Position numbers and translations under genes: made by a program. From a virus: DNA of 64,000 bases. The stretch is from IMG/VR virus record IMGVR_UViG_3300045988_112558, positions 28,997 to 92,996 of that record; one strand, 5' to 3'. This document shows, piece after piece, positions 1-37,021 of the stretch (the first letter of the stretch is position 1; every line of letters starts with the position of its first letter). The notes under the pieces were generated by a model. It saw nothing but the letters and a program-made list of their open reading frames with translations. It was not told the origin of the DNA and made no database searches.

Positions 1-3000
1 GCTTGGAAGTTATTCTAATCCTACTAATCCTGTCCCTATATTCGATGAACAGTATATTACTCAAAAAGATGGCAAATGGGGAGAACGTACTAATTTAGGT
101 ATTAGATTCGTCGTATCTAACATAGATCGTCAAGTTGAATATTTTAAGGTTGTTGTCATTCAAAATACAGTAGGATACAACGGAGAAACTCAACCGGTTG
201 TTGATTACTTTGTAGAAGGTATCCATCCTGTATCAGAAAAGACTATATTGTATTATTCGGATCTTAATAACAAACGTACTACATTCGAACACATATCCTT
301 GAAAAAACCTGTGTATAACACATCAAGGGGGATTGTGGCTGTCGGGAATCGTCTTCTTCAATATGGTCTTACGGCGGAAAAAGAATGGAATTTACAGCCT
401 GTAGTTTCCCTCATGGGACACTTCCTTCAATGGCAGGCATCGGTAGCCCACGAAGATCTGTATAAGGATGGTAATGCCTGTTCATTGTATGTGGGGTATA
501 TGAGAAATGAAGTGTATCCGTTTGCTATTTCTTTTAAGTGCTCCAACGGTTATAAAACTCCGGCATTTGTGTTAATACCTCCCCCTTATAAAGATGCTGC
601 GGCAGAAATAGAAAATAAGGATACCGATAGGGTATATAAGTCCATAAACCAATATGCTCCACCTTGTTCAGGGCAAGAGCGTAAATTCAAGTGGCAGTAT
701 TATAATACGGCAGGAGATCCGAAGGATTTTGATGATGAAGAAACCGGACAAGAAGAATGTAAAAATCCGGCTACTATCGGTCAAACTATAACATTGCAAA
801 ATGATTTTAAAACTTATACGAACGTTAGTTTTACATTCAGAAGTCAGATTATAATAGATGAGGTGATTAATTATTTTTCATCTAATATAAAAGACATCGC
901 ATGTAATACCGCTACAGAAGAACCTAATAATGCTGCTGCCAACGAAATATGCGATATATTCAACAGCTACGGAGACTCTGACGATCCTAATACGGAGGAA
1001 CAAAAAGAAGCTATAGATGGTATCGAGGCTCCTGAGTTTGGAGCCGAGTGTACTGATGCGCACCGCCAGTATTCGCTTATTACAGCTCCGGTAGATCGTA
1101 TTGTAGGTTTCCGTGAAGAATATACGTATAAGGATCTTGAGGATATGGAGCACGTATCCACCGACTACCTATATACTACCGGCGGTGAAAAGCAAGACAA
1201 GTATTCTGTGCTATTTAACTGGGAACTACAGGAACAGATGATAGAGTTCATGGATAAGTATTTCTTTGCCGATGACGAAGATGGCGGTCATTGGGCTGGA
1301 TACTGGTCGGGTGATGACGGGACCAAGGCGTGCGCTGTGTACGATTCTCTGTTACAACCGTCTGTTATATTACAGTCTATAGCCGAAGCTATTTATGTTC
1401 TGGATTCTATGCCGTGTACTTGCGGATGTTTTATAGAAGAGCCTTGTCTTAATCCTACTGTTGCCAGAAGCGATTATAACTCATTCCAGTCATCTTCTAC
1501 ACTTCTTGGAGCATACCTTCTTATGAATGATGTGTGGAATGATGATAAAGGAGAAAGTAAGGTTTGTTTCCCAGATAGCAACCACTGTCTTCCGGACTGG
1601 AGGGCCGGACGTTCTTCGAGTACTATCCACAACGACGCCTACAGGTCAAGGATAGCGCCTGGAGCCCTGATAAGGGACACCTGGCCTGAGATAGAGAAGA
1701 AGATAGATGATTATTCATATAATTTCCTTGATACCGGTTACGTTCCAGAAGGAGATTACGGAGATGGATGGACCTGGGACTCTTATGCTAATTCAGCTGA
1801 CAATAACGTAGGCGCTCTTATTCCTGAAAATGTTAAAGGTTCTACGATGTTTACATCAGAGTTGTTGGTATGGAGGTTTACGAAATGCGTGCTTCGTAAC
1901 GCCCGTTTCCTTCATATTACAAGACCTAAAGAATGGGATGATCCTGATTTCCTGGCCAAGGACAAAGTTCTTTATCTGGAATCTTTGGGTAAAATAGATG
2001 GTCTTATGGATGCTGTGTCCACACAATATGTCCGTCTTTCTTTCTGGAAATCATTAGATCCAAGATACAAGGGAAGCAATAGGAAGATAGATAAGGATGA
2101 TCTCAACTTTGATTGGAAGAAGGTCATGGATGAAGGCGATAATTATGTTATTGTTGGAGCATCCCGTCCTTATTTTGGGCACATAGGCGAATCTTTCTTC
2201 GATAAGTACCCTGATGGATTGTATGTAGCCATAGACTGCCCTATCGTATCATGCCCTTGGATTTTTACCGTCCGACAAATTGATTTCTGTAAGGTCAAAG
2301 ACGATGGAGAAGAGGATAAAAGTAAGAATCCGTCAAGAGGTTTGGTAGGCACATCTTACGTCCTTGGTAAAACTATATACCCCTATATTTTTGGTATCAG
2401 AGAAAAGGAAATAGACAGGATAAATGTACGGGCAAAAGAAATATCGTTAAGGGCCACAGTGGAATACGCCAGCCAGTGTACAATATGCGGGGATCGTCCC
2501 ATAAACTGTGCTCCAAGGAAATACAAGTACGGTGATTTCGCTTACTGGGAATCGTCTGAGAAGTATCCTGCTAATTTTGAACTGTATGACAGCAGTAAGG
2601 TTAAGATAAGTGATCATGGTTATGAAGGCAATTCCAAGAAAGCTTACGACAATATCGTATCCAAGCTTACTGAATACTACGGTTCCCCTTCTACGGATGA
2701 CAAGGGAATGATGTCTTTTAAAGGTCATAAATATGGTACGGTAGATACCAGTACCGTCTTTTGCCAACAACCTATCCGGCATTATAAGTTCCCGGACAAC
2801 GATCATATGCTTTTCATGAACCGGGATGTTAGGTCTTATGATGTTCCTTCCGATATTTATCCTATAGGAATATTAGTAGACGAGGATATGATTAACGTCT
2901 TCCTTGATTTTGCTGTAGATTCCGGATTGATAACCAAAGAGCAGCGAGATATGGTTACAGGCTATGAGATATATAGAGGTGACAGACGTCTTAATCGTTC

Positions 3001-6000
3001 TGTTATAGCTACCGGAATAGCTTACGATATGTACAGGTATTCAGGTCAAAACTCGAATCTTAATCTGTATCCTAATTATCCGTATAATGATTTATCGGAT
3101 GACTCTTTTAATTACGCAACTGAAAAAAGGGTATCGTTTATAACCCACCCATTTTTCAGAAGAGGAAACGTTTGGTATGCATTTAGTTCTCCTGATATTT
3201 ATTTCAATAAACCTGAAACCCCTACGGAGGTAGCTATAGAAGGTTTTATAAGGGGAATGTCTGTAGGAAACTTTGATGAGGTTGAAGATCATCCCAAATG
3301 GACGATATTAGGAAAACAATCATATAAGATGGCGGCCACATTAGCCAACATCGAATCCACGGCCACCATAGCTTCTCAGATAGCAGAAGAGCTTATGAAC
3401 CGTTCTACGTCTGCGTATATAGGTGTGATAGGAAATATCAATATGGCAATGATCTTTGCTTCAATGATTGCCACCATATCTGATACGCTTGCCAAAAGAC
3501 CGGTATTGTATGGTAAGTACAGATATGATTGGCTTACGACATTCATAAACAATGGCCCAAGAAGGAATCATGCTTTTTATTATACATCTGTAGGTTACTA
3601 TAATAGCATGATGGGCTTTGATGATACGGCTCCATACGAACAAAACAGATTAAGAGGATTGGCTAACACCAAGAGTCTTAAATCAGGTATGTACCCCATA
3701 TCCGATCCGTCTACTACATCATCTTGGGTTACTGGAGAAGATGTAGATGATGATAACCAAAACGCTTCAAAAGATTTTTTGTTTATAAATAACATAGATA
3801 GGGAATCTTCCATGTTCTTATCTTTTGGAGATCCGGGAGAAAAGGATCCTGATACAAGCATCTTAAATTCAAAGTATCTTGTATCGTATCCTATGCAGGC
3901 CCAGGTATATGATACAAGTCGTATCCATGACCCTGTTATCATGGCTTCTGATGCCGGATCTAAAGAGTCTTTTGAAAGGACGAAGATGTTGTCTTATATC
4001 TGTTCTCCGTATATGAAGCTTATGCGATACAGGCCCGATCAGTATGGAGCTATAGAAGATATAAAATGGATATCAGTAGGAGGGTGTGGATTCTTCCAAG
4101 GAGGGAAGCAACCTTTGTTTGGCGGTGACACCTACATATCGAGGTTTTCCATGAAGCGAAAATTCCCATTTTTTTATAATACTGCTTTTGGTATAGGGGA
4201 TATGATACCATTTGCTTACAATGATTACCGGAATGTTGGATTCCCTAAGTATTTCGTTAATTACGATACTGGAGAAGATATGCTTGAGCATACTGACAAC
4301 GAACGTTTTAATAGCTGGACATCATCAAGCAAAGGAACGTATTCTTTTTATCCAAATAGAAAAAGTTTGTATAATTTAAATGGTGAAAATGAGGCTAAGA
4401 AATATGTGGATGGTAGATTTTATCTGTGGTCTTATGGTATTCCTCAATTCCTTGTAGAATCGGAAATAAACTGCAATTTCCGATTAGAAGGAGTAGAGCC
4501 TCATGAATGGTTTTATCCGGCTCATGGTGATTTTGCTTGGTGGACACAAGAAAAGAACGTGTCTATCCATAGGGACAATGATTACAAGATAAGTCCTATC
4601 TACTCATCAAGAATGACGTTGACACCTAATGTATTGCCGGCGACATACGAACGTCGTTTTTATGATTGTGCTTACCAGCGACCTAATGGTGTTATATGGA
4701 GTAGGGCTGACGTATCTGAAAACAGTCAAACAGATCCGTGGCTGACATACAAACCTATGGACTATCATGAGTTCCCAACCAGCAACGGTAAGCTTATTCA
4801 CATGAAGCGTATTGAATCCGATCAGATTCTTGTCAGGTTTGAGGACCAGGTTTCACTCCATAACGCCATAGACGTAATCAAGGAGCGCACCTCCCCAGGG
4901 CAGGCCGAGATGGGCACCGGCGGTCTGTTCGCGTCCCGGCCTCTGGAGTACAACACGACCGACCTTGGTTATTCTGGAACCCAGAGTACTGAAATAATTA
5001 GTTCAGAATTTGGTCATTTCTGGGTAGATACTAAAAGAGCACAGGTGTTTATGACCGATCCGAACGGACGTAATCTTAAGGAACTTAGTGTAGGTATCAG
5101 ACATTGGCTTAAGCGTCATCTTCCGTTTAAGATTCTTAGATACGGAATAACTAATATCTTGACCGGTGCAGAAATGACAGAAGAAGATACGGATAACAAA
5201 TTTATCGGTCTTGGTCTGTCTCTTGGATGGGATAATAGGTATAAGAGGGTACTTATCACGAAAAAAGATTATATACCTGTTAAGAACCCGGCATATTATA
5301 AATATGATGGTGGAAGGTTCTTGTATAATGAAACAGAGGTGTTGTCAAACGATAAGGAAATATCCTTAAAAGACGAACAGTATTTCAAGGACGTGTCGTT
5401 CACTATCGGATATTCGTGTCTGAAGCAAGAATGGATATCGTATTACTCATTCTGCCCTGACTATTATATAGAGCAGCAGCAATATTTCCAGACAGGAATA
5501 AACTTCCCGGCATCAGATGAAGAAGGTGGTCTATGGAGCCATTTGCTGACGAATAAAAGCTTCCAAACATTTTATGGAACAACATATCCATTTATATTAG
5601 AAGTGCCGATAAAAGAGAAATATAACGGTTCTACGTTGGCTTCTGTAGAATACGAGCTTGATGCAAGGAAATACGTCGATGATGTGAATTACACTCTTGA
5701 CAGGAAAGTAGGTTTAGATACGATAACTATCTACAACGACACAAACAACTCAGGTGAAATTCATCTTGTTCCAGAAGAAAAGAATAATTTAGCGCAACGT
5801 ATATCGTATCCGAAGATCGTAGGCGACTATACTGAGGTCCTGGATACTGAGGTATATAGAAGACATAAGTTAAATGACTTCTTCAACAGGGTTGACGATG
5901 ACCGGTCAGAGACCCCTATTTGGATCAAGGACGATAACGATATAAATAAGTCAGTTAATCCTGATTCTCTTAATTTCAGACGGTCATGGCTGGATAGGTT

Positions 6001-6100
6001 GCGTGGTAGCTGGATGCTGATGAGGATAAAGAAAGTAATTAGCAACCGAAAGATTATATTCCAGTGGTTGATTTCTGAAGATAAGATTAAGAATAGATAA
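1..6100 (+). CDS. Giant virion/structural-module protein, 5'-truncated at the window edge (at least 2032 aa). Function unknown.
   Basis: The frame is open from nt 2 (no stop before the listed TTG at 248), so the gene starts upstream of the window. Stop at 6098-6100. Y/W/D/N-rich, no recognisable catalytic motif. Followed by terminator hairpin 6107-6140. Confidence 0.7.
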   Translation, partial: LGSYSNPTNPVPIFDEQYITQKDGKWGERTNLGIRFVVSNIDRQVEYFKVVVIQNTVGYNGETQPVVDYFVEGIHPVSEKTILYYSDLNNKRTTFEHISLKKPVYNTSRGIVAVGNRLLQYGLTAEKEWNLQPVVSLMGHFLQWQASVAHEDLYKDGNACSLYVGYMRNEVYPFAISFKCSNGYKTPAFVLIPPPYKDAAAEIENKDTDRVYKSINQYAPPCSGQERKFKWQYYNTAGDPKDFDDEETGQEECKNPATIGQTITLQNDFKTYTNVSFTFRSQIIIDEVINYFSSNIKDIACNTATEEPNNAAANEICDIFNSYGDSDDPNTEEQKEAIDGIEAPEFGAECTDAHRQYSLITAPVDRIVGFREEYTYKDLEDMEHVSTDYLYTTGGEKQDKYSVLFNWELQEQMIEFMDKYFFADDEDGGHWAGYWSGDDGTKACAVYDSLLQPSVILQSIAEAIYVLDSMPCTCGCFIEEPCLNPTVARSDYNSFQSSSTLLGAYLLMNDVWNDDKGESKVCFPDSNHCLPDWRAGRSSSTIHNDAYRSRIAPGALIRDTWPEIEKKIDDYSYNFLDTGYVPEGDYGDGWTWDSYANSADNNVGALIPENVKGSTMFTSELLVWRFTKCVLRNARFLHITRPKEWDDPDFLAKDKVLYLESLGKIDGLMDAVSTQYVRLSFWKSLDPRYKGSNRKIDKDDLNFDWKKVMDEGDNYVIVGASRPYFGHIGESFFDKYPDGLYVAIDCPIVSCPWIFTVRQIDFCKVKDDGEEDKSKNPSRGLVGTSYVLGKTIYPYIFGIREKEIDRINVRAKEISLRATVEYASQCTICGDRPINCAPRKYKYGDFAYWESSEKYPANFELYDSSKVKISDHGYEGNSKKAYDNIVSKLTEYYGSPSTDDKGMMSFKGHKYGTVDTSTVFCQQPIRHYKFPDNDHMLFMNRDVRSYDVPSDIYPIGILVDEDMINVFLDFAVDSGLITKEQRDMVTGYEIYRGDRRLNRSVIATGIAYDMYRYSGQNSNLNLYPNYPYNDLSDDSFNYATEKRVSFITHPFFRRGNVWYAFSSPDIYFNKPETPTEVAIEGFIRGMSVGNFDEVEDHPKWTILGKQSYKMAATLANIESTATIASQIAEELMNRSTSAYIGVIGNINMAMIFASMIATISDTLAKRPVLYGKYRYDWLTTFINNGPRRNHAFYYTSVGYYNSMMGFDDTAPYEQNRLRGLANTKSLKSGMYPISDPSTTSSWVTGEDVDDDNQNASKDFLFINNIDRESSMFLSFGDPGEKDPDTSILNSKYLVSYPMQAQVYDTSRIHDPVIMASDAGSKESFERTKMLSYICSPYMKLMRYRPDQYGAIEDIKWISVGGCGFFQGGKQPLFGGDTYISRFSMKRKFPFFYNTAFGIGDMIPFAYNDYRNVGFPKYFVNYDTGEDMLEHTDNERFNSWTSSSKGTYSFYPNRKSLYNLNGENEAKKYVDGRFYLWSYGIPQFLVESEINCNFRLEGVEPHEWFYPAHGDFAWWTQEKNVSIHRDNDYKISPIYSSRMTLTPNVLPATYERRFYDCAYQRPNGVIWSRADVSENSQTDPWLTYKPMDYHEFPTSNGKLIHMKRIESDQILVRFEDQVSLHNAIDVIKERTSPGQAEMGTGGLFASRPLEYNTTDLGYSGTQSTEIISSEFGHFWVDTKRAQVFMTDPNGRNLKELSVGIRHWLKRHLPFKILRYGITNILTGAEMTEEDTDNKFIGLGLSLGWDNRYKRVLITKKDYIPVKNPAYYKYDGGRFLYNETEVLSNDKEISLKDEQYFKDVSFTIGYSCLKQEWISYYSFCPDYYIEQQQYFQTGINFPASDEEGGLWSHLLTNKSFQTFYGTTYPFILEVPIKEKYNGSTLASVEYELDARKYVDDVNYTLDRKVGLDTITIYNDTNNSGEIHLVPEEKNNLAQRISYPKIVGDYTEVLDTEVYRRHKLNDFFNRVDDDRSETPIWIKDDNDINKSVNPDSLNFRRSWLDRLRGSWMLMRIKKVISNRKIIFQWLISEDKIKNR

Positions 6101-6106
6101 TATCGT

Positions 6107-6146
6107 ATTACCCTCTGCCTATTAGCAAGTAGAGGGTAATACTTTT
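6107..6146 (+). terminator. Stem-loop terminator after the giant gene.
   Basis: Perfect 10-bp stem ATTACCCTCT/AGAGGGTAAT (6107-6116 / 6131-6140), 14-nt loop, then ACTTTT. Confidence 0.5.
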
Positions 6147-6226
6147 AAGTGCAAGGCTGTGTATAACCACTTTATATTATTCACTACATTTATTTATCCA
6201 AATTAATACATTTTAAATCATTTTAA

Positions 6227-6257
6227 TTTGTAAATCATATTTTAGTGTCTATATTTG
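6227..6257 (+). promoter_or_regulatory. Bacteroidetes-type sigma-A promoter (-33 TTTG, -7 TAnnTTTG) driving the tRNA-like array.
   Basis: TTTG at 6227-6230 and TATATTTG at 6250-6257, 19-nt spacing. This matches the published Bacteroides consensus TTTG-N19-21-TAnnTTTG. Confidence 0.55.
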
Positions 6258-6288
6258 CATCGTAATCAAGAGAGATTATGATATAAAA

Positions 6289-6349
6289 CAGTGGTGATGG
6301 AAGGTGATACTTCGGTTTGTGTCATAGGTTCGAGTCCTATATTTTTCAT
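6289..6349 (+). ncRNA. tRNA-like element 1: a degenerate copy with a 5' box GTGGTGATGG, an anticodon-like hairpin and an intact T-arm, but no D-arm or acceptor stem.
   Basis: T-arm ATAGG-TTCGAGT-CCTAT (6324-6340) followed by ATTTTTCAT. Hairpin GATAC/GTGTC (6306-6323) with an 8-nt loop. The 5' box GTGGTGATGG (6291-6300) is shared with unit 3. Confidence 0.4.
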
Positions 6350-6460
6350 GTAAGAAAAATTAGATCAGTTGGTAGATCAAAACCTCCTTTCATATCAAAA
6401 CACATTTCAGGTTTTCCCTGTTTTAATAAAATATATAGATGGTGAGGAGTTCGGTTACTT

Positions 6461-6533
6461 CGAAAATTAGCGTAGTGGATAACGCGGTATTCTGTAAAAA
6501 TACTTTTCATTGGTTCGAATCCAATATTTTCAT
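6461..6533 (+). tRNA. tRNA-Tyr (anticodon GUA), 73 nt, with a C1·A72 mismatch at the top of the acceptor stem.
   Basis: Hand-folded cloverleaf. Acceptor CGAAAAT/ATTTTCA (6 of 7 pairs). D-stem GCGT/ACGC with loop AGTGGATA. Anticodon stem GTATT/AATAC with loop CTGTAAA (U33, GUA, A37). Variable loop TTTTC. T-arm ATTGG-TTCGAAT-CCAAT. Discriminator T, no encoded CCA. Confidence 0.65.
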
Positions 6534-6589
6534 TTTAATTATCCGGCTCCGTTTTTCCTCTGTTTGAAATACATAAAAACTAATGAGTG

Positions 6590-6681
6590 GTGATGGGGTT
6601 AGTTACTTCGAATTTAGCTCAGATGGATAGAGCGATACTCAGTTAAAGTATAGGTCGATGGTTCAAATCCATTATTTCATT
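6590..6681 (+). ncRNA. tRNA-like element 3: well-formed D, anticodon (GUU, Asn-like) and T arms but a non-pairing acceptor stem and A33 in the loop, preceded by the 5' box GTGGTGATGG...TTACTTCGAA. Either a degenerate tRNA-Asn or a tRNA-mimic ncRNA.
   Basis: D-arm GCTC-AGATGGATA-GAGC (6617-6633). Anticodon stem ATACT/AGTAT with loop CAGTTAA (6635-6651). T-arm GATGG-TTCAAAT-CCATT (6657-6673). The flanks TCGAATT / ATTTCAT pair at only 4 of 7 positions. The 5' box at 6592-6611 is shared with units 1 and 2. Confidence 0.4.
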
Positions 6682-6740
6682 GTTTACACTAACTTCAGGT
6701 TTTCCCTCATTGAGTATTCATTTTGATATATTTTTTTTTA

Positions 6741-6771
6741 AGCAGTGGTAGTAATATCACTGCTTTTTTTT
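6741..6771 (+). terminator. Rho-independent terminator closing the tRNA-like array.
   Basis: 7-bp stem AGCAGTG/CACTGCT, 10-nt loop, then a T7-8 tract (6765-6772). Confidence 0.7.
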
Positions 6772-6800
6772 GTATAACACTTTAAAGAAAACAACAACAA

Positions 6801-8435
6801 ATGGGAAAGTTTAACAAAAAGGATGAAGGTGTTAAACCTACGATCGTGAATCACATGGGAGAGAAGGCGTATAAGCCTAACGCAGAAGAAGAGTTGGTAT
6901 CTACGGTAATGACTACCATGTTGTCTGATTCTTATTATGAGAAAGAAAAAGACAAGGTGAACAGGATTAAGGACCTTATGGATCAAGTAGATCCATATTT
7001 CGCAGCACAAACAGCATTGTATGTCAGGAAAGAAGGAAAGCTTAGGTCGGTAACGCATCTTATGGCTTCTGTCCTTGCCAGCAAAGCATCGGGTAAGGAA
7101 TGGGCTTCAAGGTTCTATAATAAGATCGTTATGCGTCCTGATGATATGAGCGAAATCCTTGGCTGCTATGCGGCTCTTAACGACAAAAATCCAAAGAAGT
7201 TAAGAGGAATATCCAGCGCTATTAAGAAAGGATTTAAGACGGCTTTGGAAGGTCTTGATCCGTATCGGATTGATAAGTATAAGATGGACAGTAGGGTCAT
7301 TACTATGGTTGACTTAGTAAACTTATTTCACCCTAAAGGCAATCAGGCTAACAAAACGGCTTTCCAGTACCTTATAGAAGGTCGGTCTTTGTCTGGATTA
7401 TACGAAAGCAAGATTCTTGAAAAAGAAATGTCTAAAGCCGGACAGGACAAGAAAGACAATAAGGAAAAGAAAGAAGCTTTAGGTGACGCTATTCGGGACG
7501 TGGTTTCTAATGTAAAAGGTATGCCTATTTTTAATATGGTTCGTAACCTTGTAAACATAATCAAATACGCGCCTGATCAAATAGATGAAGTTTGTAGGCA
7601 GCTTACAATAGAAGAGAAGGTGCTTAATTCGAAGATGCTTCCTTTCCGTTTTGCTTCAGCTTTCAAAGAGGTTGAAAATATAGGCACTGATGATTCCGAA
7701 AATGATATTGTATTTGAGTCGGATAAAAAACGTGCTAAATTAACAGCGCGTAATAAACATAAGATTTTAGATGCGTTGGAGAAAGCCATAACCATCTCCT
7801 GCAAGAACCTTCCGGTATTGGAGGGGCGGTCGGCTATCCTGATTGACCACTCTGGCTCTGTACGTGGAGATATGGGAGGATCTTCTGAGGTGTCTGCCTT
7901 TAGCAAAACAAGTACGGCTGTCATTGGTAACTTATTTGGCTGTATGATTGCTTCTGTGCTTCCTGACGTATTTATTGGTATGTTTGGTGACGAACTTATC
8001 AATTACGAATATGATAGAAGTAAAGGTGTTTTATGGAATAACAAAAAATCTTTTACTGCCGGAGAAGAATGCGGTGGTGCCACTGAAAACGGTCTTTTTG
8101 CATTCTTGTATAAGTGCGTTAAAGATAAGATCAAAGTAGATAACTTGTACGTTATTTCAGATATGCAGATAGGAGACGGTGAATCTGTTGTATGGGAGAA
8201 AAGTTCCAGTTATGGATATGGTAAATTCGCTGAACTTTTGAAAGGGTTTAAAAAAGTGAATCCAAATTGCAAAATCGTTTCTATTTCTATTAAAGGATAT
8301 GGAAGTGAGATGTTTTACAGAGGATCTAATATCTTGAACATAGCTGGCTGGTCAGAATCTATTTTCGATGTTATTAACAGCAAATTCTGCGGATATAAGA
8401 ATATGATTGAAGAAATTAAGAAAATAAAAATATAA
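6801..8435 (+). CDS. rsr: Ro60/Rsr ortholog: TROVE domain plus a C-terminal von Willebrand A domain with a MIDAS motif.
   Basis: N-terminus VNHMGEKAYKPNAEEELVSTVMTTMLSDSYY matches the Ro60 signature NxxGxxAY...YY. MIDAS DxSGS is present as ILIDHSGSVRGD. Length 544 aa is typical of Ro60. Flanked by terminators 6741-6771 and 8495-8532. Confidence 0.8.
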   Translation: MGKFNKKDEGVKPTIVNHMGEKAYKPNAEEELVSTVMTTMLSDSYYEKEKDKVNRIKDLMDQVDPYFAAQTALYVRKEGKLRSVTHLMASVLASKASGKEWASRFYNKIVMRPDDMSEILGCYAALNDKNPKKLRGISSAIKKGFKTALEGLDPYRIDKYKMDSRVITMVDLVNLFHPKGNQANKTAFQYLIEGRSLSGLYESKILEKEMSKAGQDKKDNKEKKEALGDAIRDVVSNVKGMPIFNMVRNLVNIIKYAPDQIDEVCRQLTIEEKVLNSKMLPFRFASAFKEVENIGTDDSENDIVFESDKKRAKLTARNKHKILDALEKAITISCKNLPVLEGRSAILIDHSGSVRGDMGGSSEVSAFSKTSTAVIGNLFGCMIASVLPDVFIGMFGDELINYEYDRSKGVLWNNKKSFTAGEECGGATENGLFAFLYKCVKDKIKVDNLYVISDMQIGDGESVVWEKSSSYGYGKFAELLKGFKKVNPNCKIVSISIKGYGSEMFYRGSNILNIAGWSESIFDVINSKFCGYKNMIEEIKKIKI

Positions 8436-8494: not shown

Positions 8495-8532
8495 AGCCGA
8501 AGAAGTACGTGAGTATATCTTCGGCTTTTTTG
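8495..8532 (+). terminator. Rho-independent terminator after the Ro60 gene.
   Basis: 9-bp stem AGCCGAAGA/TCTTCGGCT (8495-8503 / 8518-8526), 14-nt loop, T6 tract. Confidence 0.7.
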
Positions 8533-8559
8533 TTTATCTTTGTTGAAAAACAGTTTGTT

Positions 8560-8958
8560 ATGAAACAAGTATTATATAAAAATGACATATACCCCTATAA
8601 TGTAAGGGTATTACTTGGAGCAGATGAAGAGTATATAGTTAAGACGTTCGCTAACCTGGAAGTAGAAAATCAGAGCTGGGATGGGTGGACTGATAATTAT
8701 GGTGGCAGAACTATTTTCGTAGGAAACCGAACCAATCACAGGAAAGAAATATGTTTCTTGTTTCATTCACTGTCTGATATGGATGTTAGAACCATAGGAC
8801 ACGAATGTCTGCACGGTCTTTCCCTTTATTGTAAGTATCTTAATATTAACTACAGTTTTGACGCCGGAGAAGATGAGCACGCTGCCTATCTAATGGGATG
8901 GTTGGTTGACAAGGTTTGTGATGCTTACCACAAATTTAAGAAGGAGGAAGAAAAATGA
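8560..8958 (+). CDS. Small HExxH zinc-metallopeptidase-like protein (paralog 1).
   Basis: HECLH followed by EDEHAAYLMGW. The start was moved to the ATG at 8560 (MKQVLYKND) because the listed upstream start overlaps the terminator. A TAnnTTTG box lies at 8535-8542. Confidence 0.6.
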   Translation: MKQVLYKNDIYPYNVRVLLGADEEYIVKTFANLEVENQSWDGWTDNYGGRTIFVGNRTNHRKEICFLFHSLSDMDVRTIGHECLHGLSLYCKYLNINYSFDAGEDEHAAYLMGWLVDKVCDAYHKFKKEEEK

Positions 8959-9374
8959 AAGAAAAAGAATTTGATTTTGTGATATATCCACTAAAGTTGA
9001 TTATCACCGTAGGGTTAGATTACAAAACATTGTGTGATCGTTTTGAGAATGCAGAATTGGATCATGAAGGAGAGTGGGGAGATGAAGGCGATTTAGATTC
9101 AGAAGTCTCTTTTATGAATCTTGTTCGTGATAAGGGGGATGATAGAGCTTTTAAGTTATTATGGAACTTTCAAAGTGAGAATGATATGACTATACAAAAC
9201 ATATGTCATGAATCATTTCATGCAGCTATGTCGGTATGCCAACATTGTAATATGTTTCTTGGTTTTAAGGTGGGAGAAGATGAACACGCAGCTTACATAG
9301 CTGGATTTGTTGGTAACTGCGCAGGTGAAATGTTTGGATTCTTAGAGGAAGAAAAAGATGGCAAAGAAGAATAA
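8955..9374 (+). CDS. Small HExxH zinc-metallopeptidase-like protein (paralog 2).
   Basis: HESFH followed by EDEHAAYIAGF. Its start overlaps the upstream stop in an ATGA arrangement (translational coupling). Confidence 0.6.
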   Translation: MKEKEFDFVIYPLKLIITVGLDYKTLCDRFENAELDHEGEWGDEGDLDSEVSFMNLVRDKGDDRAFKLLWNFQSENDMTIQNICHESFHAAMSVCQHCNMFLGFKVGEDEHAAYIAGFVGNCAGEMFGFLEEEKDGKEE

Positions 9375-12339
9375 ATCAGATTGGAAGCCCTCAGAAAATA
9401 TCCTAAAATATTTGAAATCGTGGGAAAAGTTTGAGCCTGAATTATATGACGATAAGAAGGGAAATATAACAATCGGGTACGGATTTCATCTTCCTCATCT
9501 TCTTAAAAAATACAAGAATGGTATAACAGTAGAAGAGGCCGATAAGGAATTTGAAGGTGTAGTTAATACGTTTGTTCCGGAATTTATACGAAGAACTCCT
9601 AATTTCAAGAATCTAAACAATAATCAGCGAGATGCTTTGTTTAGTTTGTTTTACAATACAGGAGGACCAGAGTATTCTAAAAGCCCAATGCTTTTCAAAT
9701 ACCTTAAAGAAGGTGATTATGATAAGGCAGTGAAAGAAATAAATCACAATAAAAACGAGAAAGGTATGGGCGGCCAGAAGAAGCGCCGTGCCTTCGAGCG
9801 CCTGGTGTTCACTACGCCGACAGACCAGCCCTGGACGGTGGATGATGACAGTAACTATGTCTTGATTGAAGATAAGCCTGTAGAGAACGAATCTATAGAA
9901 AAAAATATTAATGATTCAAAGTATGAAGACGCTCGTCATGTAGCCGCAAAATACGGTTATACAGGTTATATAGGTGGAAGATATGACGGAAATAAGGTCA
10001 GGGTATCTGATTCGAATATGAAATCAGTTGGCATATCCAATAACGCTGATCCTGATAAGTGGTATGAATCCGTTAATCCAATATTAGACACTGATCCTAT
10101 TAGTTTAATTGCCGATTTTATTCCTACTGTGAAACGAATGTTGGATCCTAATAGGGAGCGATCCGGAGAAGATACAGCCACAGATTTTGAAGAAAAAATG
10201 TGGAAGGCTTACACGGATGGAGATATAAGTAGATTACCGGCAAGCAAGTATCGTTTTGATGACGATGATGATAATGCTCAGTACGTGGGATTGCCTCAAG
10301 AACAAGCCATTTTGATACAATCTTTATTAGATAAAGAATATATAAACAACATGCTTGACGAGGCATATAAGAATGCTGATGAAAAAAGTAAACTAAAAAT
10401 AAGAGATTACAAGAAGGTCCTTGATAAACTAAATAAAAATATATTTGAAAATCCAGGAAAATGGATTTTAGTAAATGAAGGCGTAAGTCCATTTAGAGAA
10501 GAAGTATATGGTGACAATTTTGAAAAAGTGAACGAAGCTTCCGGATTAGGTGCGTTGAAGAATTTCAGTGTAAGATGGGATCCTGATGCCGGTATGTTAG
10601 ATGTGAAGGATGATTATGATTTTAGTCGAAAGAAGATAGCGGAAGACATCATACCGGAAAGGGATGTCCCTCTTAGAATAAGGGAACGTATCAAATACGA
10701 TCCTAAGAAAGGTAGTGTGCTTCGAAATAATGACAAGGCTTTACCTAAAAGGTTTGTAAGGAAATACGAAGAAGGTGGAGAAGCTAAGTATTGGTGGAGC
10801 AATCCAGACAAGAGAGATGAGGTTATAAAAAGACAAGATGACAATGGGGAGTGGCAAGAAAAGAGGAGGAGATTACTTGAACAAGCTCATTCAGATCTTG
10901 AAAAAGGTGAAATTGATGAGGACGAATTTAGAAGAATAGCCGGGTTTTCAAATAGTGAAATAGGAAATTTGATAATATCCAAAGATGGAAACGGGGAAGA
11001 AATAGGAGCTATTATAAATAATCTTTTAGATTCCATAGATATAGATAAGGTAAAAGAGGGAATTGATGATGCTAAAGAAGAGAGGGAGAACAAGAGCAGG
11101 GAGGATGCTTACCCTTATAAGTTAATGGCCGAATCTTTGCTTACACTTGCGGACGTTGCTTCTTCTACACCAGGAATGCTCAGATTATATAACAAAATGG
11201 GATTAAGGTTGATGCCGATTCTTAAGACAATAGCAGAAAGTAGCAAAATACAAACCATAGCTGGATTGTCTAATGTGGGTGTTGACGGAAGCCAGATTGC
11301 CTTAGATCCAGAAGGAGATAATACTTTTAACTACGCCGGCATACTTGGTGGAGCCGCCGAGGCAATAGGAGGAACGAATGTGATAAGGAATATGTCTTTT
11401 ATGGGAAGATATGGGAATAGGGTAGATGATGTACTTGATATTGCAAATCCTATTATATCAACATTAGGTGTAGTAGATGATGTAAGTAAGATGAAAGAAG
11501 GTGGAGTAATTGGCAAGCAGCGTGAAGCATATGAATACTTTACTAATAAGAGAGGTATGTCCAAGATACAGGCGCTTGCTATCATAGGTAATCTCATGGC
11601 TGAATCCGGTCTTAAAGATGACATATATGGAGACAATAGAACATCATACGGCATACAGCAATGGCATAATGAACGCATGGATAAGTTATTCAAGCATGCC
11701 AAAAAGAAAGGTCATTCTACACCCACATTCAAAGACCAACTTGAGTTCTTGGCTGACGAATACGAAGGGAAAACCGGATATTCTAATTTCTTATACACAA
11801 GAAAAGGAAAAGAAGGACCAGGGTATTACAACTACAGCCGGCAGGATTTTATGAACGCCGATAACCTTAAAGATGCTGTAGTAGCTTGGAACCAAGGAGC
11901 AGGACGTCCTCATAAGAGTGTTATAAGAAATGATGACCGTTATAACTATGCTATGGAAGTTGCTAAAAATCTTGGTTTGGAAATTGAAGAAAATTCCGTA
12001 TCTTCGTATGGCCAAATGGGATTCGGAGATGATGGTGAAATAGCAGCATCGGTAACACTTCCAGAGGTAGAAGTGGCAGCCGCCCTCCCTAACCCAGAAG
12101 CCCCGTCCCAGGAGGGACAGTCCGAGGAAGAGAGATTCCGTACATGGACTGAAACGTATGGTAAGGACATCATAAATCATTTACTGACGTTAGACGGGAA
12201 AAAGGATGGTGATGACAGTGATTATAATATGATGTATAGACAGAATCAAAAAGAAAGCGAAGAGGATAAGAAAATGGCTTTGATTAATGCCGTGCTTCCC
12301 AATATTCAGCTTCGCATTAAAGGCGTCACTGACAATTAG
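9358..12339 (+). CDS. 993-aa lysin with two peptidoglycan-hydrolase domains: an N-terminal GH24 (T4-type) lysozyme domain and a C-terminal lysozyme-like/lytic-transglycosylase-like domain. Probably virion-associated.
   Basis: N-terminus EPELYDDKKGNITIGYGF with NQRDALFSLFYNTG matches the GH24 catalytic E-D-T region. C-terminus IQALAIIGNLMAESGL...SYGIQQWH matches a GNxxxES...GxxQW lysozyme-like motif. The start overlaps the preceding gene by 17 nt. Confidence 0.7.
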   Translation: MAKKNKSDWKPSENILKYLKSWEKFEPELYDDKKGNITIGYGFHLPHLLKKYKNGITVEEADKEFEGVVNTFVPEFIRRTPNFKNLNNNQRDALFSLFYNTGGPEYSKSPMLFKYLKEGDYDKAVKEINHNKNEKGMGGQKKRRAFERLVFTTPTDQPWTVDDDSNYVLIEDKPVENESIEKNINDSKYEDARHVAAKYGYTGYIGGRYDGNKVRVSDSNMKSVGISNNADPDKWYESVNPILDTDPISLIADFIPTVKRMLDPNRERSGEDTATDFEEKMWKAYTDGDISRLPASKYRFDDDDDNAQYVGLPQEQAILIQSLLDKEYINNMLDEAYKNADEKSKLKIRDYKKVLDKLNKNIFENPGKWILVNEGVSPFREEVYGDNFEKVNEASGLGALKNFSVRWDPDAGMLDVKDDYDFSRKKIAEDIIPERDVPLRIRERIKYDPKKGSVLRNNDKALPKRFVRKYEEGGEAKYWWSNPDKRDEVIKRQDDNGEWQEKRRRLLEQAHSDLEKGEIDEDEFRRIAGFSNSEIGNLIISKDGNGEEIGAIINNLLDSIDIDKVKEGIDDAKEERENKSREDAYPYKLMAESLLTLADVASSTPGMLRLYNKMGLRLMPILKTIAESSKIQTIAGLSNVGVDGSQIALDPEGDNTFNYAGILGGAAEAIGGTNVIRNMSFMGRYGNRVDDVLDIANPIISTLGVVDDVSKMKEGGVIGKQREAYEYFTNKRGMSKIQALAIIGNLMAESGLKDDIYGDNRTSYGIQQWHNERMDKLFKHAKKKGHSTPTFKDQLEFLADEYEGKTGYSNFLYTRKGKEGPGYYNYSRQDFMNADNLKDAVVAWNQGAGRPHKSVIRNDDRYNYAMEVAKNLGLEIEENSVSSYGQMGFGDDGEIAASVTLPEVEVAAALPNPEAPSQEGQSEEERFRTWTETYGKDIINHLLTLDGKKDGDDSDYNMMYRQNQKESEEDKKMALINAVLPNIQLRIKGVTDN

Positions 12340-36812: not shown

Positions 36813-36972
36813 AAAAGTTGATATTCGTTTAGGTAGAGGTCTGGCGAATCAGATTAAGATAAACAAAACCATTCCAGTGTCTCATAAACCAAAAGAAGAA
36901 CGTCGAATGATGTTTATTTGTGGTGATGATATTGCTTCTATTATAAAGCGGTTTGAAAACGAATCAAAGTAA
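36802..36972 (+). CDS. Possible 56-aa ORF (MKGKKVDIRLGRG...) not in the supplied track (under 60 aa).
   Basis: ATG at 36802 overlaps the upstream stop region. Ends at TAA immediately before the terminator 36978-37009. Confidence 0.3.
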   Translation: MKGKKVDIRLGRGLANQIKINKTIPVSHKPKEERRMMFICGDDIASIIKRFENESK

Positions 36973-36977
36973 TATAA

Positions 36978-37009
36978 AGTCGGACATATATCTTGTCCGA
37001 CTTTTTTTA
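36978..37009 (+). terminator. Rho-independent terminator (9-bp stem AGTCGGACA/TGTCCGACT, 7-nt loop, T7 tract).
   Basis: Seen directly in the sequence. It lies inside the listed ORF 36953-37345, arguing for the later start at 37022. Confidence 0.7.
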
Positions 37010-37021
37010 TATATTTGTGGC

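What the first reader, a model, noticed from the sequence alone, without database searches (positions are those of the whole stretch)
6289..6690. Triplicated leader-plus-tRNA unit in which only the middle copy (tRNA-Tyr GUA, C1·A72) is canonical and two copies are arm-intact but acceptor-dead
Three consecutive units share a conserved 5' box (GTGGTGATGG...TTACTTCGAA), a T-arm with a TTCGA/TTCAA loop, and the 3' tail ATTTT(T)CAT. Unit 2 folds as a clean tRNA-Tyr with an initiator-like C1·A72 mismatch. Unit 3 keeps perfect D, anticodon (GUU) and T arms but its acceptor strands pair at only 4 of 7 positions and it has A33. Unit 1 keeps only the T-arm plus one hairpin. A further D-arm-like fragment (TAGATCAGTTGGTAGATC, 6362-6379) sits between units 1 and 2. 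Selective preservation of the D and T arms while the acceptor stem decays is the signature expected of tRNA mimics (Y-RNA-like or decoys for tRNA-targeting host nucleases), not of random pseudogenisation.
Basis: seen in the sequence. Interest (0 to 1): 0.65.

Follow-up and report, generated by a model that had tools for sequence, protein, structure and literature searches.

The report
Phage Y RNAs carrying tRNA look-alikes
The three repeats are most likely Y RNAs, small RNAs that partner the Ro60-like protein encoded immediately downstream in this crAss-like gut phage; two of them carry an almost complete tRNA look-alike that databases currently list as ordinary tRNA genes.

Summary

Each unit closes with the same stem: a 7-bp helix H1, a bulged U, a GG:CC step, a UGA/UUUU loop and a helix H2. 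In 22 homologous units from phages and bacteria, H1 plus the step is 97.5% paired and all 9 pairs covary.

This stem recurs next to rsr in crAss-like phages, jumbo phages and several bacterial phyla. It carries interchangeable inner modules:
- Unit 1 has a circularly permuted tRNA-like module (T arm, closed 7-bp stem, D arm), the YrlA type.
- Units 2 and 3 have a non-permuted, complete cloverleaf.

The cloverleaf's acceptor runs into the stem and is A/U-rich. Position 1:72 is unpaired in 20 of 22 units, and the discriminator is U73 whatever the anticodon. The anticodon differs between near-identical genomes, and some relatives lack the module while keeping the stem. This window's A33/GUU is unique among 82 relatives; the rest have U33/UUU.

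Verdict: a Y RNA array, a new variant of a known kind. Function is inferred, not shown.

The parts
6227..6257 (+). Candidate promoter for the array: TTTG (6227-6230), a 19-nt spacer, then TATATTTG (6250-6257). This matches the Bacteroidetes -33/-7 consensus TTTG...TAnnTTTG.
   Evidence: Read from the sequence. The same motif pair precedes rsr or Y-RNA arrays in L286, L287, L290, L292, L294 and L303. The sigma-70 scan gives only chance-level matches here. The consensus itself is from my own knowledge; this part is inferred.
6284..6425 (+). Unit 1: Y RNA with a circularly permuted (YrlA-type) tRNA-like module.
- H1: 6284-6291 paired with 6418-6425
- Bulged U: 6292
- GG 6293-6294 paired with CC 6416-6417
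- UGA: 6295-6297
- H2: 6297-6304 paired with 6386-6393
- CUUCG box: 6310-6314
- T arm: 6324-6340
- Closed 7-bp acceptor-like hairpin: 6341-6360
- D arm: 6363-6378
   Evidence: Full-length Rfam YrlA alignment at 29.2 bits, E 3.7e-4. Model R1 scores 38.2 bits full length. The unconstrained MFE already contains H1, the bulge and GG:CC. Compensatory changes occur in the T stem, hairpin and D stem in relatives.
6435..6563 (+). Unit 2: Y RNA stem enclosing a non-permuted, complete tRNA-like module.
- H1: 6435-6439 paired with 6559-6563
- Bulged U: 6440
- GG 6441-6442 paired with CC 6557-6558
- UGA: 6443-6445
- H2: 6446-6457 paired with 6536-6550
- CUUCG box: 6458-6462
- tRNA-like module: 6461-6533 (anticodon GUA, C1.A72, U73)
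   Evidence: RF00005 57.4 bits. R1 117.6 bits full length. The MFE shows the stem plus a cloverleaf. Across 64 genomes the stem is invariant while the anticodon arm varies. In L054, L023, L048 and L032 the module is missing but the stem is retained.
6581..6712 (+). Unit 3: Y RNA stem enclosing a non-permuted tRNA-like module.
- H1: 6581-6587 paired with 6706-6712
- Bulged U: 6588
- GG 6589-6590 paired with CC 6704-6705
- UGA: 6591-6593
- H2: 6594-6603 paired with 6688-6697
- CUUCG box: 6606-6610
- tRNA-like module: 6608-6681 (loop CAGUUAA here, CUUUUAA in all relatives; acceptor 4 of 7; U73)
   Evidence: RF00005 44.1 bits with acceptor mismatches at 1, 2 and 6. R1 112.6 bits. The unit is nearly invariant in 76 genomes, including its mismatched acceptor. 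The anticodon at this position is UUU, UUC, GUU or GUG in different relatives.
6740..6771 (+). Intrinsic-terminator-like hairpin followed by a T run, between the array and rsr.
   Evidence: Terminator scan: an 11-bp stem and T tract; 1 site found against 0.3 expected. It is conserved in relatives.
6801..8435 (+). rsr: a 544-aa TROVE-domain (Ro60-related) protein, the presumed protein partner of the three RNAs.
   Evidence: Pfam TROVE 5.2e-14. PHROG 850 'RNA-binding protein', full length, 5.4e-29. PDB TROVE-domain proteins 9l5y and 9kop, 3e-15. The 96%-identical GenBank relative annotates it as 'Ro sixty-related protein'.

Best explanation
Window 6284-6712 encodes an array of three Y RNAs that most likely work with the phage's own Ro60 orthologue (Rsr, 6801-8435).

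Shown:
- Each RNA is about 130-142 nt, and its 5' and 3' ends pair into a conserved stem: 7-bp H1, a bulged U, a GG:CC step, an asymmetric UGA/UUUU loop, helix H2 and a CUUCG box.
- The stem covaries and recurs on the rsr strand next to rsr in crAss-like phages, 280-430-kb jumbo phages and bacteria of several phyla.
- It carries interchangeable distal modules. These are a circularly permuted tRNA-like fold (unit 1, YrlA type), a non-permuted full cloverleaf with an anticodon arm (units 2 and 3), or, in relatives, only a short loop.
- In units 2 and 3 the CUUCG box supplies the 5' strand of a short, A/U-rich acceptor helix that is open at 1:72. It runs through an internal loop into H2, so the module has no free acceptor end.

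Inferred:
- Rsr binds the H1/bulge region, as Ro60 binds the bulged terminal stem of other Y RNAs.
- The array is transcribed from the Bacteroidetes-type promoter at about 6227-6257 and ends at the terminator at 6740-6771.
- The tRNA-shaped modules are the effector ends. They either present an L-shaped tRNA surface to tRNA-recognising proteins and tether them to Rsr, or compete with real tRNAs for those proteins.
- Unit 1 exposes the elbow and a closed acceptor end. Units 2 and 3 expose the elbow and a free anticodon loop, which YrlA lacks.

My preferred functional guess is that units 2 and 3 are Rsr-stabilised tRNA surrogates aimed at anticodon-loop-directed enzymes of the host, such as anticodon nucleases or modification enzymes. 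I do not think they are translated-with tRNAs.
For: Identity as Y RNAs:
- A TROVE/Ro60 gene lies 90 nt downstream on the same strand.
- Unit 1 aligns full length to Rfam YrlA. Permuted units on the same stem in Clostridia score 31-51 bits.
- A pairing scanner finds about 48 stem units on the rsr strand and 1 on the opposite strand of the same loci.
- Across 47 distinct units H1 is 96% paired, against 40-48% with the partner slid, and positions 3-4 use all four Watson-Crick pair types. GG:CC covaries to AG:CU, and to AC:GU in bacteria.
- H2 duplex z-score has a median of -2.6, and 35 of 47 units are below -2.
- A structure-blind alignment of 19 units is 85.5% paired against 38-47% slid, with 34 of 39 pairs changed on both sides.
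- The model-aligned set of 22 units gives H1 97.5%, H2 83%, and D, anticodon and T stems 98-100%.
- Model R1 finds exactly three units in the 64-kb window, while ordinary tRNAs match only model positions 28-108.

Against an ordinary decoding tRNA:
- The acceptor is 66.7% paired, and 1:72 is unpaired in 20 of 22 units.
- Acceptor G+C is 0.23 and the discriminator is U in 55 of 64, regardless of anticodon.
- The four ordinary tRNAs of the same phage lineage have 7 of 7 acceptor pairs and G+C of 0.42-0.56.
- Unit 2 relatives have a 6-nt loop, 8-nt loops, G33, a disrupted stem or no module at all, all with an intact stem.
- Anticodons differ between near-identical bodies: GAU, UUU and UCU in L295, L297 and L305; UUU, UUC, GUU and GUG at unit 3.
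- The mismatched acceptor of unit 3 is invariant in 76 genomes.

Literature:
- Y RNAs lie within 4 kb of rsr on the same strand and include phage examples. M. smegmatis YrlA is cut by RNase P. Yrn1 has the opposite D/T orientation and an 'anticodon arm' (PMC4201824).
- YrlA lacks an anticodon loop (10.1101/312249).
- YrlA has been proposed as a possible competitive inhibitor of an anticodon nuclease (PMC7790460).
Against: - There are no expression, end-mapping or binding data. Rsr binding to this stem is inferred from synteny and analogy.
- The literal GNCGAAN0-1G motif of the defining paper is absent, and Rfam's YrlA gathering score is not reached.
- Units 2 and 3 score well as tRNAs (57 and 44 bits), keep U8, G18G19, the T loop, a 15:48 pair and mostly canonical 7-nt anticodon loops. 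Unit 3's anticodon loop is conserved within its clade. All of this would also be expected of working tRNAs.
- Some relatives have near-intact acceptors: L083 has 7 of 7 pairs, and L293 has 6 of 7 with A73.
- The anticodon set (Lys, Tyr, Asn, Glu, Gln, Ile, Arg-UCU) is also the usual A/U-rich-codon repertoire of phage tRNAs.
- The phage lineage encodes a CCA-adding-type nucleotidyltransferase, and RNase P is known to cut a Y RNA with a 7-bp acceptor (PMC4201824). Release of tRNA-sized products therefore cannot be excluded.
Confidence: 0.72

Rival explanations
1. Units 2 and 3 are genuine phage tRNAs, and only unit 1 is a Y RNA. The paired leader and trailer form a precursor stem, possibly bound by Rsr as a chaperone or quality-control factor. 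RNase P and 3' processing then release the tRNAs, CCA is added, and they decode A/U-rich codons or replace host tRNAs cut by defence nucleases.
For: - RF00005 scores are 57.4 and 44.1 bits, with intact, covarying D, anticodon and T arms.
- Most units have canonical 7-nt anticodon loops.
- Unit 3 is conserved, including its anticodon loop.
- L083 and L293 have near-complete acceptors.
- The lineage encodes a CCA-adding-type enzyme and Pnkp.
- In bacteria, ordinary tRNA arrays adjoin rsr.
- RNase P cuts and CCA is added to M. smegmatis YrlA (PMC4201824).
- Phage tRNAs with altered anticodon loops escape anticodon nucleases (PMC11455837).
Against: - The acceptor is mismatched at 1:72 in 20 of 22 units and only 4 of 7 paired in unit 3, while ordinary tRNAs of the same genome are 7 of 7.
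- U73 occurs whatever the anticodon. There is no G-1 or C73 for 'His', and no long variable arm or A73 for bacterial 'Tyr' (established identity rules, from my own knowledge).
- Unit 2 relatives have 6-nt or 8-nt loops, G33, a broken stem, or have lost the module while the stem stays intact.
- The same stem carries modules that cannot be tRNAs, both permuted and simple.
- A leader paired to a trailer is a poor RNase P substrate (my own knowledge).
Confidence: 0.2
2. The conserved leader-trailer stems are RNase III-type processing stalks, or another cis-acting structure of a small-RNA/tRNA operon, and have no functional link to Rsr.
For: Long imperfect helices flanking structured RNAs are typical processing stalks (my own knowledge). 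An intrinsic terminator separates the array from rsr. L006 keeps rsr without the array.
Against: The stem is found on the rsr strand next to rsr in unrelated phages and in at least four bacterial phyla. It includes a conserved bulged U, the GG:CC step and the UGA motif, which a mere processing stalk would not need. The same stem carries YrlA-type modules that match the Rfam Y RNA model.
Confidence: 0.05
3. The region is a triplicated tRNA gene in which two copies are decaying pseudogenes with no function.
For: Acceptor mismatches, and A33 in this window's unit 3. Recombinant and deleted arrays exist in some contigs.
Against: Stems evolve by compensatory change. The stem and unit 3 are almost invariant across 64-76 genomes whose intergenic DNA is otherwise 83-99% identical. 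Unit 1 is a complete permuted fold. The architecture is conserved down to relatives with 52% Rsr identity.
Confidence: 0.03

Closest known systems
YrlA (Y RNA-like A; Rfam RF02553; Chen et al. 2014, PMC4201824; structure in Wang et al. 2018, 10.1101/312249)
   Same: It is encoded just upstream of rsr on the same strand, and its 5' and 3' ends pair into a stem. The distal module mimics tRNA in the order V/T arm, closed acceptor-like stem-loop, D arm. Unit 1 has exactly this order, with a 7-bp closed stem like M. smegmatis YrlA, plus G18G19, UUCGA and a possible G15:C48 pair. Phage examples are already known from mycobacteriophages.
   Different: Unit 1 scores 29 bits against a gathering score of 69, and the literal GNCGAAN0-1G motif is absent (the box here is CUUCG). 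Both strands of the terminal helix are conserved, with a bulged U, whereas in Salmonella and M. smegmatis YrlA only the 5' strand is recognisable. The host genome is a crAss-like phage of Bacteroidetes. Units 2 and 3 do not have the YrlA topology at all.
Deinococcus radiodurans Yrn1 (Chen et al. 2013 and 2014)
   Same: It is a Y RNA whose tRNA-like features run in the non-permuted order: D-like element, 'anticodon arm', T arm. The Y stem takes the place of the acceptor end. Both strands of the Ro-binding helix are retained, and it is co-transcribed with other Y RNAs and a tRNA upstream of rsr.
   Different: Yrn1 has only a partial D loop, a 6-nt 'anticodon loop' and no variable region, and it is not called as a tRNA. 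Units 2 and 3 have a complete cloverleaf that tRNA finders call and GenBank annotates as tRNA-Tyr and tRNA-Lys. Sequence homology to Yrn1 was not tested. The paper proposed that YrlA and Yrn1 evolved independently, whereas here both topologies sit on one shared stem in one array.
Phage-encoded tRNAs that counter tRNA-targeting defences (T5 tRNA-Lys against PARIS; summarised in PMC11455837)
   Same: They are phage-encoded tRNA-shaped RNAs whose anticodon-loop sequence differs from the host tRNA and varies between phages. Lys-UUU and Tyr-GUA are among the specificities.
   Different: Those are free, chargeable tRNAs that restore translation. The units here are embedded in a Y RNA stem next to rsr, have defective acceptors and uniform U73, and can lose the module.
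Other tRNA mimics (tmRNA, TYMV tRNA-like structure) and circularly permuted tRNA genes
   Same: They have an L-shaped fold with a T arm and a D-like element and are recognised by tRNA enzymes. The permuted order in unit 1 resembles permuted tRNA genes, as discussed in 10.1101/312249.
   Different: tmRNA and the TYMV structure have free CCA ends and are aminoacylated. Nothing here has a free acceptor end encoded, and no splicing or re-ligation pathway is implied.

Membership tests
Bacterial/phage Y RNA (Chen et al. 2014 operational definition) | Encoded within about 4 kb of a TROVE/Ro60 (rsr) gene, on the same strand | tested here: met
   The units lie at 6284-6712 (+) and rsr at 6801-8435 (+), with Pfam TROVE 5.2e-14. 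The same arrangement is seen in all relatives.
Bacterial/phage Y RNA (Chen et al. 2014 operational definition) | The 5' and 3' ends pair into a long stem that holds the Ro60-binding site | tested here: met
   The H1-bulge-GG:CC-H2 stem is part of the MFE of each unit. It is 97.5% (H1) and 83% (H2) paired, and all 18 pairs covary. Whether it is the Ro60-binding site is inferred.
Bacterial/phage Y RNA (Chen et al. 2014 operational definition) | GNCGAAN0-1G motif near the 5' end | tested here: not met
   There is no GNCGAA anywhere in 5554-7988. The conserved motifs here are U-GG-UGA and (U/A)ACUUCG; CUUCGAA shares only CGAA with the published motif.
Bacterial/phage Y RNA (Chen et al. 2014 operational definition) | Bound by Rsr, with Rsr-dependent accumulation | not testable with these tools
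   This needs immunoprecipitation or an rsr deletion in an infected host.
YrlA subfamily (Rfam RF02553) | Score at or above the curated gathering threshold (69 bits) | tested here: not met
   Unit 1 scores 29.2 bits, full length, E 3.7e-4. Units 2 and 3 have no YrlA match. Permuted units on the same stem score 31-34 bits in phages and 31-51 bits in Clostridia, and none reaches 69.
YrlA subfamily (Rfam RF02553) | Permuted order: T arm, closed acceptor-like stem-loop, D arm, with the anticodon-stem position leading to the Ro stem | tested here: met
   This holds for unit 1 only: T arm 6324-6340, 7-bp hairpin 6341-6360, D arm 6363-6378. It is not met by units 2 and 3, which have the order D, anticodon arm, T.
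YrlA subfamily (Rfam RF02553) | Nucleotides for tRNA tertiary contacts (G18G19, U54U55C56, 15:48 pair, U8/A14) | tested here: met
   Read from the sequences. D loops are AGUUGGUA, AGUGGAUA and AGAUGGAUA; T loops are UUCGAGU, UUCGAAU and UUCAAAU; each variable loop ends in C opposite G15. Whether the contacts form was not tested.
Yrn1-type Y RNA (D. radiodurans) | Non-permuted orientation of the D-like and T arms, with an 'anticodon arm' between them and the Y stem at the acceptor position | tested here: met
   This is the case in units 2 and 3. The orientation criterion is taken from PMC4201824.
Yrn1-type Y RNA (D. radiodurans) | Sequence or profile homology to Yrn1 | not tested
Canonical elongator tRNA | Cloverleaf scoring above the RF00005 gathering score | tested here: met
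   The scores are 57.4 and 44.1 bits against a gathering score of 29.
Canonical elongator tRNA | A 7-bp acceptor stem with a paired 1:72 and free ends | tested here: not met
   Unit 2 has C1.A72. Unit 3 has 4 of 7 pairs. Position 1:72 is unpaired in 20 of 22 homologous units. The flanks are paired to each other, with a duplex median of -22.3 against -14.6 kcal/mol for other tRNAs. Ordinary tRNAs of the same phage lineage have 7 of 7 pairs.
Canonical elongator tRNA | Discriminator and other identity elements that match the anticodon | tested here: not met
   U73 occurs in 55 of 64 units whether the anticodon reads Tyr, Lys, Asn, Cys, Glu or His. The expected elements (A73 and a long variable arm for bacterial Tyr, A73 for Lys, G73 for Asn, G-1 and C73 for His) come from established identity rules (my own knowledge).
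Canonical elongator tRNA | Anticodon conserved among orthologues | tested here: not met
   Unit 3 position: UUU, UUC, GUU, GUG. Unit 2 position: GUA, GCA, GUU, 6-nt or 8-nt loops, or absent. L295, L297 and L305: GAU, UUU and UCU on one tRNA body.
Canonical elongator tRNA | Processing to a CCA-ended, aminoacylated molecule | not testable with these tools
   No CCA is encoded after the discriminator in the window units. Processing and charging need experiments.

The most novel reading that the evidence does not exclude
The non-permuted units are Rsr-bound tRNA surrogates with an exposed, genuine-looking anticodon stem-loop. The phage uses them as protected decoys or sensors for host anticodon-loop-directed nucleases. 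The anticodon differences seen between near-identical phages (Lys, Glu, Asn, His; Tyr, Cys, Asn; Ile, Lys, Arg) would then record an arms race over which host tRNase is being countered. If so, this would give the tRNA-like domain of Y RNAs its first defined function. It would also show that the permuted (YrlA) and non-permuted (Yrn1-like) topologies interconvert on one Ro-binding stem, since unit 1's module reads like the 3' part of one unit-2-like copy joined to the 5' part of the next.
Probability: 0.2. Interest if true: 0.85.

Novelty: new variant of a known kind. Interest (0 to 1): 0.62.

Why it matters
Y RNAs with tRNA-like domains have been known in bacteria and mycobacteriophages since 2013-2014, but what the tRNA-like domain does is still unknown.

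This locus adds three things:
- Y RNA arrays occur in crAss-like and jumbo gut phages, some of the most abundant viruses in humans, and Rfam's curated YrlA threshold misses them.
- A class of Y RNA carries a whole, non-permuted cloverleaf with an anticodon loop, the part that YrlA lacks. Genome annotation currently lists these as tRNA-Tyr, tRNA-Lys and so on, which distorts phage tRNA censuses and codon-usage arguments.
- Both tRNA-like topologies sit on one shared, covarying stem, and the modules are gained, lost and re-targeted between close relatives. This gives natural variants for testing what the module binds.

It also links phage biology to the Ro60, RNA repair and tRNA damage pathway.

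Tried and rejected
- **Loose DNA pattern scan.** A scan of viral contigs with TGGTGAN{8,12}TTACTTCGA returned mostly chance singletons at that database size. Only the loci with two matches belonged to this clade, so I dropped the pattern as a probe.
- **Query with the 73%-identity Rsr (P0024).** It returned the same main clade again and added no depth.
- **First acceptor-pair comparison.** My comparison between stem-embedded and other tRNAs was invalid, because ARAGORN end conventions differ and the control set was contaminated. I did not use it, and replaced it with a T-loop-anchored count and same-genome controls.
- **RNAalifold on a raw MAFFT alignment.** It missed H1 because the unit ends were misaligned. 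I fixed this by trimming to 7-nt ends and realigning with the model.
- **Single-sequence folding z-scores.** With loosely chosen boundaries they were unremarkable (-1.35, 0.60, 0.02), so thermodynamic stability alone does not flag these RNAs.
- **Rfam YrlA gathering threshold.** I tried it as a way to link the stem to the curated family. No Firmicutes, Bacteroidota or phage unit reaches it.
- **NCBIfam.** It gave no name for the protein.
- **'The anticodons are those targeted by known anticodon nucleases'.** I considered this as evidence for the decoy idea and rejected it as non-discriminating, because the same set is the usual A/U-rich-codon repertoire of phage tRNAs.
- **Relaxed scanner on high-GC bacterial loci.** It gave similar hit counts on both strands (22 and 15), so bacterial units were accepted only when model R1 or inspection confirmed them.
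Full report
**What is in the sequence**

ARAGORN and Rfam both call two tRNA-like genes in the window.
- The first is at 6461-6533 (anticodon GTA, 57.4 bits). Its only non-standard pair is C1.A72.
- The second is at 6608-6681 (anticodon GTT, 44.1 bits). It has acceptor mismatches at 1:72, 2:71 and 6:67, and A33.

The stretch before them (6297-6396) aligns end to end with Rfam YrlA ('Y RNA-like'). The order is T arm, closed hairpin, D arm. The score is 29.2 bits, below the gathering score of 69, with E 3.7e-4 for the region searched.

The shared 5' box is far beyond chance, with 2 matches against 0.01 expected.

The ORF at 6801-8435 on the same strand is a TROVE-domain (Ro60-related, Rsr) protein.
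- Pfam TROVE gives 5.2e-14.
- PHROG 850, 'RNA-binding protein', matches full length at 5.4e-29.
- PDB TROVE-domain proteins match at 3e-15.

The window is 96% identical to the 151-kb human-gut phage csAssE-Sib (OR575929). That record annotates tRNA-Tyr, tRNA-Lys and 'Ro sixty-related protein' here, and leaves unit 1 unannotated.

**Real unit boundaries and the shared stem**

A 3' box (UUUUCC plus 5-8 nt) pairs with the nucleotides just before the 5' box.

The common plan is as follows:
- helix H1;
- one bulged U;
- GG paired to CC;
- an asymmetric loop, UGA on the 5' side and a U-rich run on the 3' side;
- helix H2;
- the box (U/A)ACUUCG;
- a variable module.

The exact units are 6284-6425, 6435-6563 and 6581-6712. 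With these boundaries, the unconstrained minimum-free-energy fold of each unit already contains H1, the bulge and GG:CC.

**Comparative evidence for the stem**

I collected loci from several sources:
- 80 IMG/VR loci with Rsr 96-99% identical, whose upstream RNA region is only 83-99% identical;
- relatives at 90% and 73% Rsr identity;
- a diverse phage set at about 50-57% identity to the window's Rsr, with contigs from 14 to 434 kb;
- 51 loci from bacterial genome assemblies.

A simple pairing scanner found about 48 units on the rsr strand, upstream or just downstream of rsr, and one hit on the opposite strand of the same DNA.

Over 47 distinct units:
- H1 is 96% paired, against 40-48% when the partner strand is slid;
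- positions 3-4 use all four Watson-Crick pair types;
- pairing falls to background at positions 8-9;
- GG:CC alternates with AG:CU, and in Lachnospiraceae and Chitinophagales with AC:GU.

H2 is supported by duplex energies against shuffles: the median z is -2.6, and 35 of 47 units are below -2.

On a structure-blind MAFFT alignment of 19 non-permuted units, my full structure is 85.5% paired, against 38-47% when slid. In 34 of 39 pairs both sides have changed.

After realignment of 22 units with a covariance model, the figures are as follows:
- H1 plus the step: 97.5% paired, with all 9 pairs covarying;
- H2: 83%;
- D, anticodon and T stems: 100%, 98% and 99%;
- acceptor: 66.7%, with 1:72 unpaired in 20 of 22 units.

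The model finds exactly three units in the 64-kb window: 117.6, 112.6 and 38.2 bits, all full length. Ordinary tRNAs match only its inner positions 28-108.

**The modules are interchangeable**

The same stem carries three kinds of module.
- *Permuted YrlA-type.* These include window unit 1, unit 1 of L082 and L083, L290, and the Acetivibrio/Clostridia units, which score 31-51 bits against YrlA.
- *Non-permuted whole cloverleaf.* These include window units 2 and 3, and the phage loci L288, L293, L295, L297 and L305. They also include bacteria: Lachnospiraceae (L315, L317, L319), Chitinophagales (L323), Lewinellaceae (L330) and Desulfobacteraceae (L327).
- *No module.* These include unit 2 of L054, L023, L048 and L032, the jumbo-phage units on both sides of rsr, L303 and L314.

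In every cloverleaf-bearing unit the tRNA call starts at unit position 27-31, so the CUUCG box supplies the 5' strand of the acceptor. In the bacterial versions CUUCG is followed directly by U8-A9. It pairs with CGAAG or CGAGG after the T arm, giving a 4-5-bp acceptor.

Read directly from the sequence, unit 1's module looks like the 3' part of a unit-2-like copy joined to the 5' part of the next copy.
- CAUAGGUUCGAGUCCUAUAUUUUUCAU (unit 1) matches CAUUGGUUCGAAUCCAAUAUUUUCAU (unit 2).
- GAAAAAUUAG (unit 1) matches CGAAAAUUAG (unit 2).

Recombinants through exactly these repeats exist. L072 is a U1-U2 fusion, and L029 and L061 are U2-U3 fusions.

**Are units 2 and 3 working tRNAs?**

Evidence against:
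- The complete relative has an ordinary tRNA cluster elsewhere (Cys, Arg, Gln, Met). All four have 7 of 7 acceptor pairs and G+C of 0.42-0.56.
- The rsr-linked modules have acceptor G+C of 0.23, an almost universal 1:72 mismatch, and U73 in 55 of 64, whatever the anticodon.
- Within the near-identical main clade, unit 2's stem and acceptor strands are invariant. Its anticodon arm carries most of the diversity. The variants include compensated stems, G33, a disrupted stem, 8-nt and 6-nt loops, anticodons GUA, GCA and GUU, and outright loss of the module.
- At unit 3 the anticodon is UUU in essentially all of the 81 close relatives. It is UUC in two of them, GUU in this window and in L082, and GUG in L083.
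- L295, L297 and L305 carry GAU, UUU and UCU on one otherwise near-identical body.
- Unit 3's 4-of-7 acceptor is conserved unchanged across 76 genomes. That fits neither decay nor an ordinary tRNA.

Evidence for:
- The tRNA scores are good, the loops are mostly canonical, and unit 3 is conserved as a whole.
- L083 and L293 have near-intact acceptors.
- The lineage encodes a CCA-adding-type enzyme and Pnkp.

I therefore keep 'released, chargeable tRNAs' as a live rival at about 0.2.

**Comparison with what is known**

Chen et al. 2014 (PMC4201824) defined bacterial and phage Y RNAs. They lie near rsr on the same strand and have a terminal stem, a GNCGAAN0-1G motif and a tRNA-like domain.
- They noted that D. 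radiodurans Yrn1 has the opposite D/T orientation, with a 6-nt 'anticodon loop'.
- They suggested that YrlA and Yrn1 arose independently.

Wang et al. 2018 (10.1101/312249) showed that YrlA is an L-shaped mimic lacking a CCA end and an anticodon loop. Hughes et al. 2020 (PMC7790460) raised the possibility that YrlA competitively inhibits an anticodon nuclease.

Against those definitions:
- Synteny, the terminal stem and the permuted order of unit 1 are met.
- The literal GNCGAA motif is not met.
- The Rfam gathering score is not met.

I found no paper in the searchable library describing Y RNAs in crAss-like phages, or Y RNAs with a complete non-permuted cloverleaf. That library is incomplete, so this is not proof of absence.

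**How it most likely works**

Shown:
- three tandem RNAs with a conserved, covarying, bulged terminal stem, next to rsr;
- tRNA-shaped distal modules in two topologies;
- turnover of the modules and of their anticodons.

Inferred:
- Rsr binds the H1/bulge region. The conserved [U]GGUGA resembles the GGUCCGA strand of metazoan Y RNAs, but I treat that only as a lead.
- The array is transcribed from the Bacteroidetes-type promoter at about 6227-6257 and ends at the terminator at 6740-6771.
- The modules tether Rsr to tRNA-recognising proteins, or compete with real tRNAs for them.

My preferred but unproven reading is that units 2 and 3 are Rsr-stabilised tRNA surrogates presenting an anticodon loop to host anticodon-directed enzymes. 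This fits three things: the Rsr, RtcB and tRNA-damage link (PMC7790460); phage tRNA counter-defence (PMC11455837); and the presence of Pnkp in this phage lineage.

**Verdict**

The 'Y-RNA-like tRNA mimic' guess is right in kind. The 'one good tRNA plus two decaying copies' picture is wrong.

This is a new variant of a known kind. It is of moderate-to-high interest, because it offers natural variants for working out what the tRNA-like domain of Y RNAs does, and because these RNAs are being annotated as tRNAs.

Noticed in passing
L076:2350-2578 (also L009): A HEARO RNA (the IscB-associated omega RNA, RF02033, 93.4 bits, above its gathering score) sits where most of unit 1 should be. A mobile element appears to have replaced that Y RNA in some genomes of the clade.
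   Followed up: partly
window 248-6100, 6801-8435, 8509-9374, 9358-12339: rsr lies inside the structural gene block, between a 1950-aa 'muzzle' protein and a tail lysozyme. It is followed by two small paralogous ORFs that both match phrog_1365 (unknown function). Whether Rsr or its RNAs are packaged or ejected is an open question.
   Followed up: partly
L307 (OR575929) 3537-4409 and 2615-3571; L309 37063-37725: The complete relative encodes three RNA-end-healing-type enzymes: a polynucleotide kinase/3'-phosphatase, an NrnA-like phosphodiesterase and a poly(A)-polymerase/CCA-adding-type nucleotidyltransferase. These could act on tRNA-like RNAs. All three lie outside this window.
   Followed up: no
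L330:1791-2784, L332:1144-1828, L323:1820-2962, L324:2404-2767: In several bacteria rsr sits directly downstream, on the same strand, of a long array of ordinary tRNA genes (4-10 genes). Stem-embedded tRNA-like units are interspersed among them in L323 and L330.
   Followed up: partly
L291:2320-2450: L290 has a YrlA-type unit upstream of rsr. Its relative L291 has a different, unidentified sequence with complementary ends (AGAAAGA...UCUUUCU) at the same place, and it has no Rfam match.
   Followed up: no
L286, L287, L290, L291, L292, L294, L303: about 2455-2500: A conserved rsr 5' leader (TTCTTTTAATAA...AAATTAAATAGTGA) directly precedes the start codon in otherwise divergent phages. It may be a regulatory element.
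   Followed up: no
L298-L302: about 2378-2475 and about 4166-4281: Phage contigs of up to about 430 kb (three of the five are complete jumbo-sized contigs) carry one simple stem unit just upstream of rsr and a second one just downstream. H1 and H2 covary between the genomes.
   Followed up: partly
L006:2690-2900; L050 (unit 1 D arm); L055:2480-2570: The array shows structural polymorphism. L006 keeps rsr but has unrelated sequence in place of the whole array. L050 has a 12-nt duplication in unit 1's D arm. L055 has the 5' half of unit 1 replaced. Some of these could be metagenome assembly artefacts.
   Followed up: partly
L307 45751-47816; L308 8986-10125 and 14190-15413: The relative's genome also carries a diversity-generating retroelement (VR/TR plus a reverse transcriptase) that targets a putative tail fibre, and two TnpB genes.
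   Followed up: no
window 36930-37147 (- strand): This was the only scanner hit outside the array. It has a weak 8-bp H1 with 2 G.U pairs, no U-rich 3' box and no match to model R1. I judged it a chance match.
   Followed up: yes
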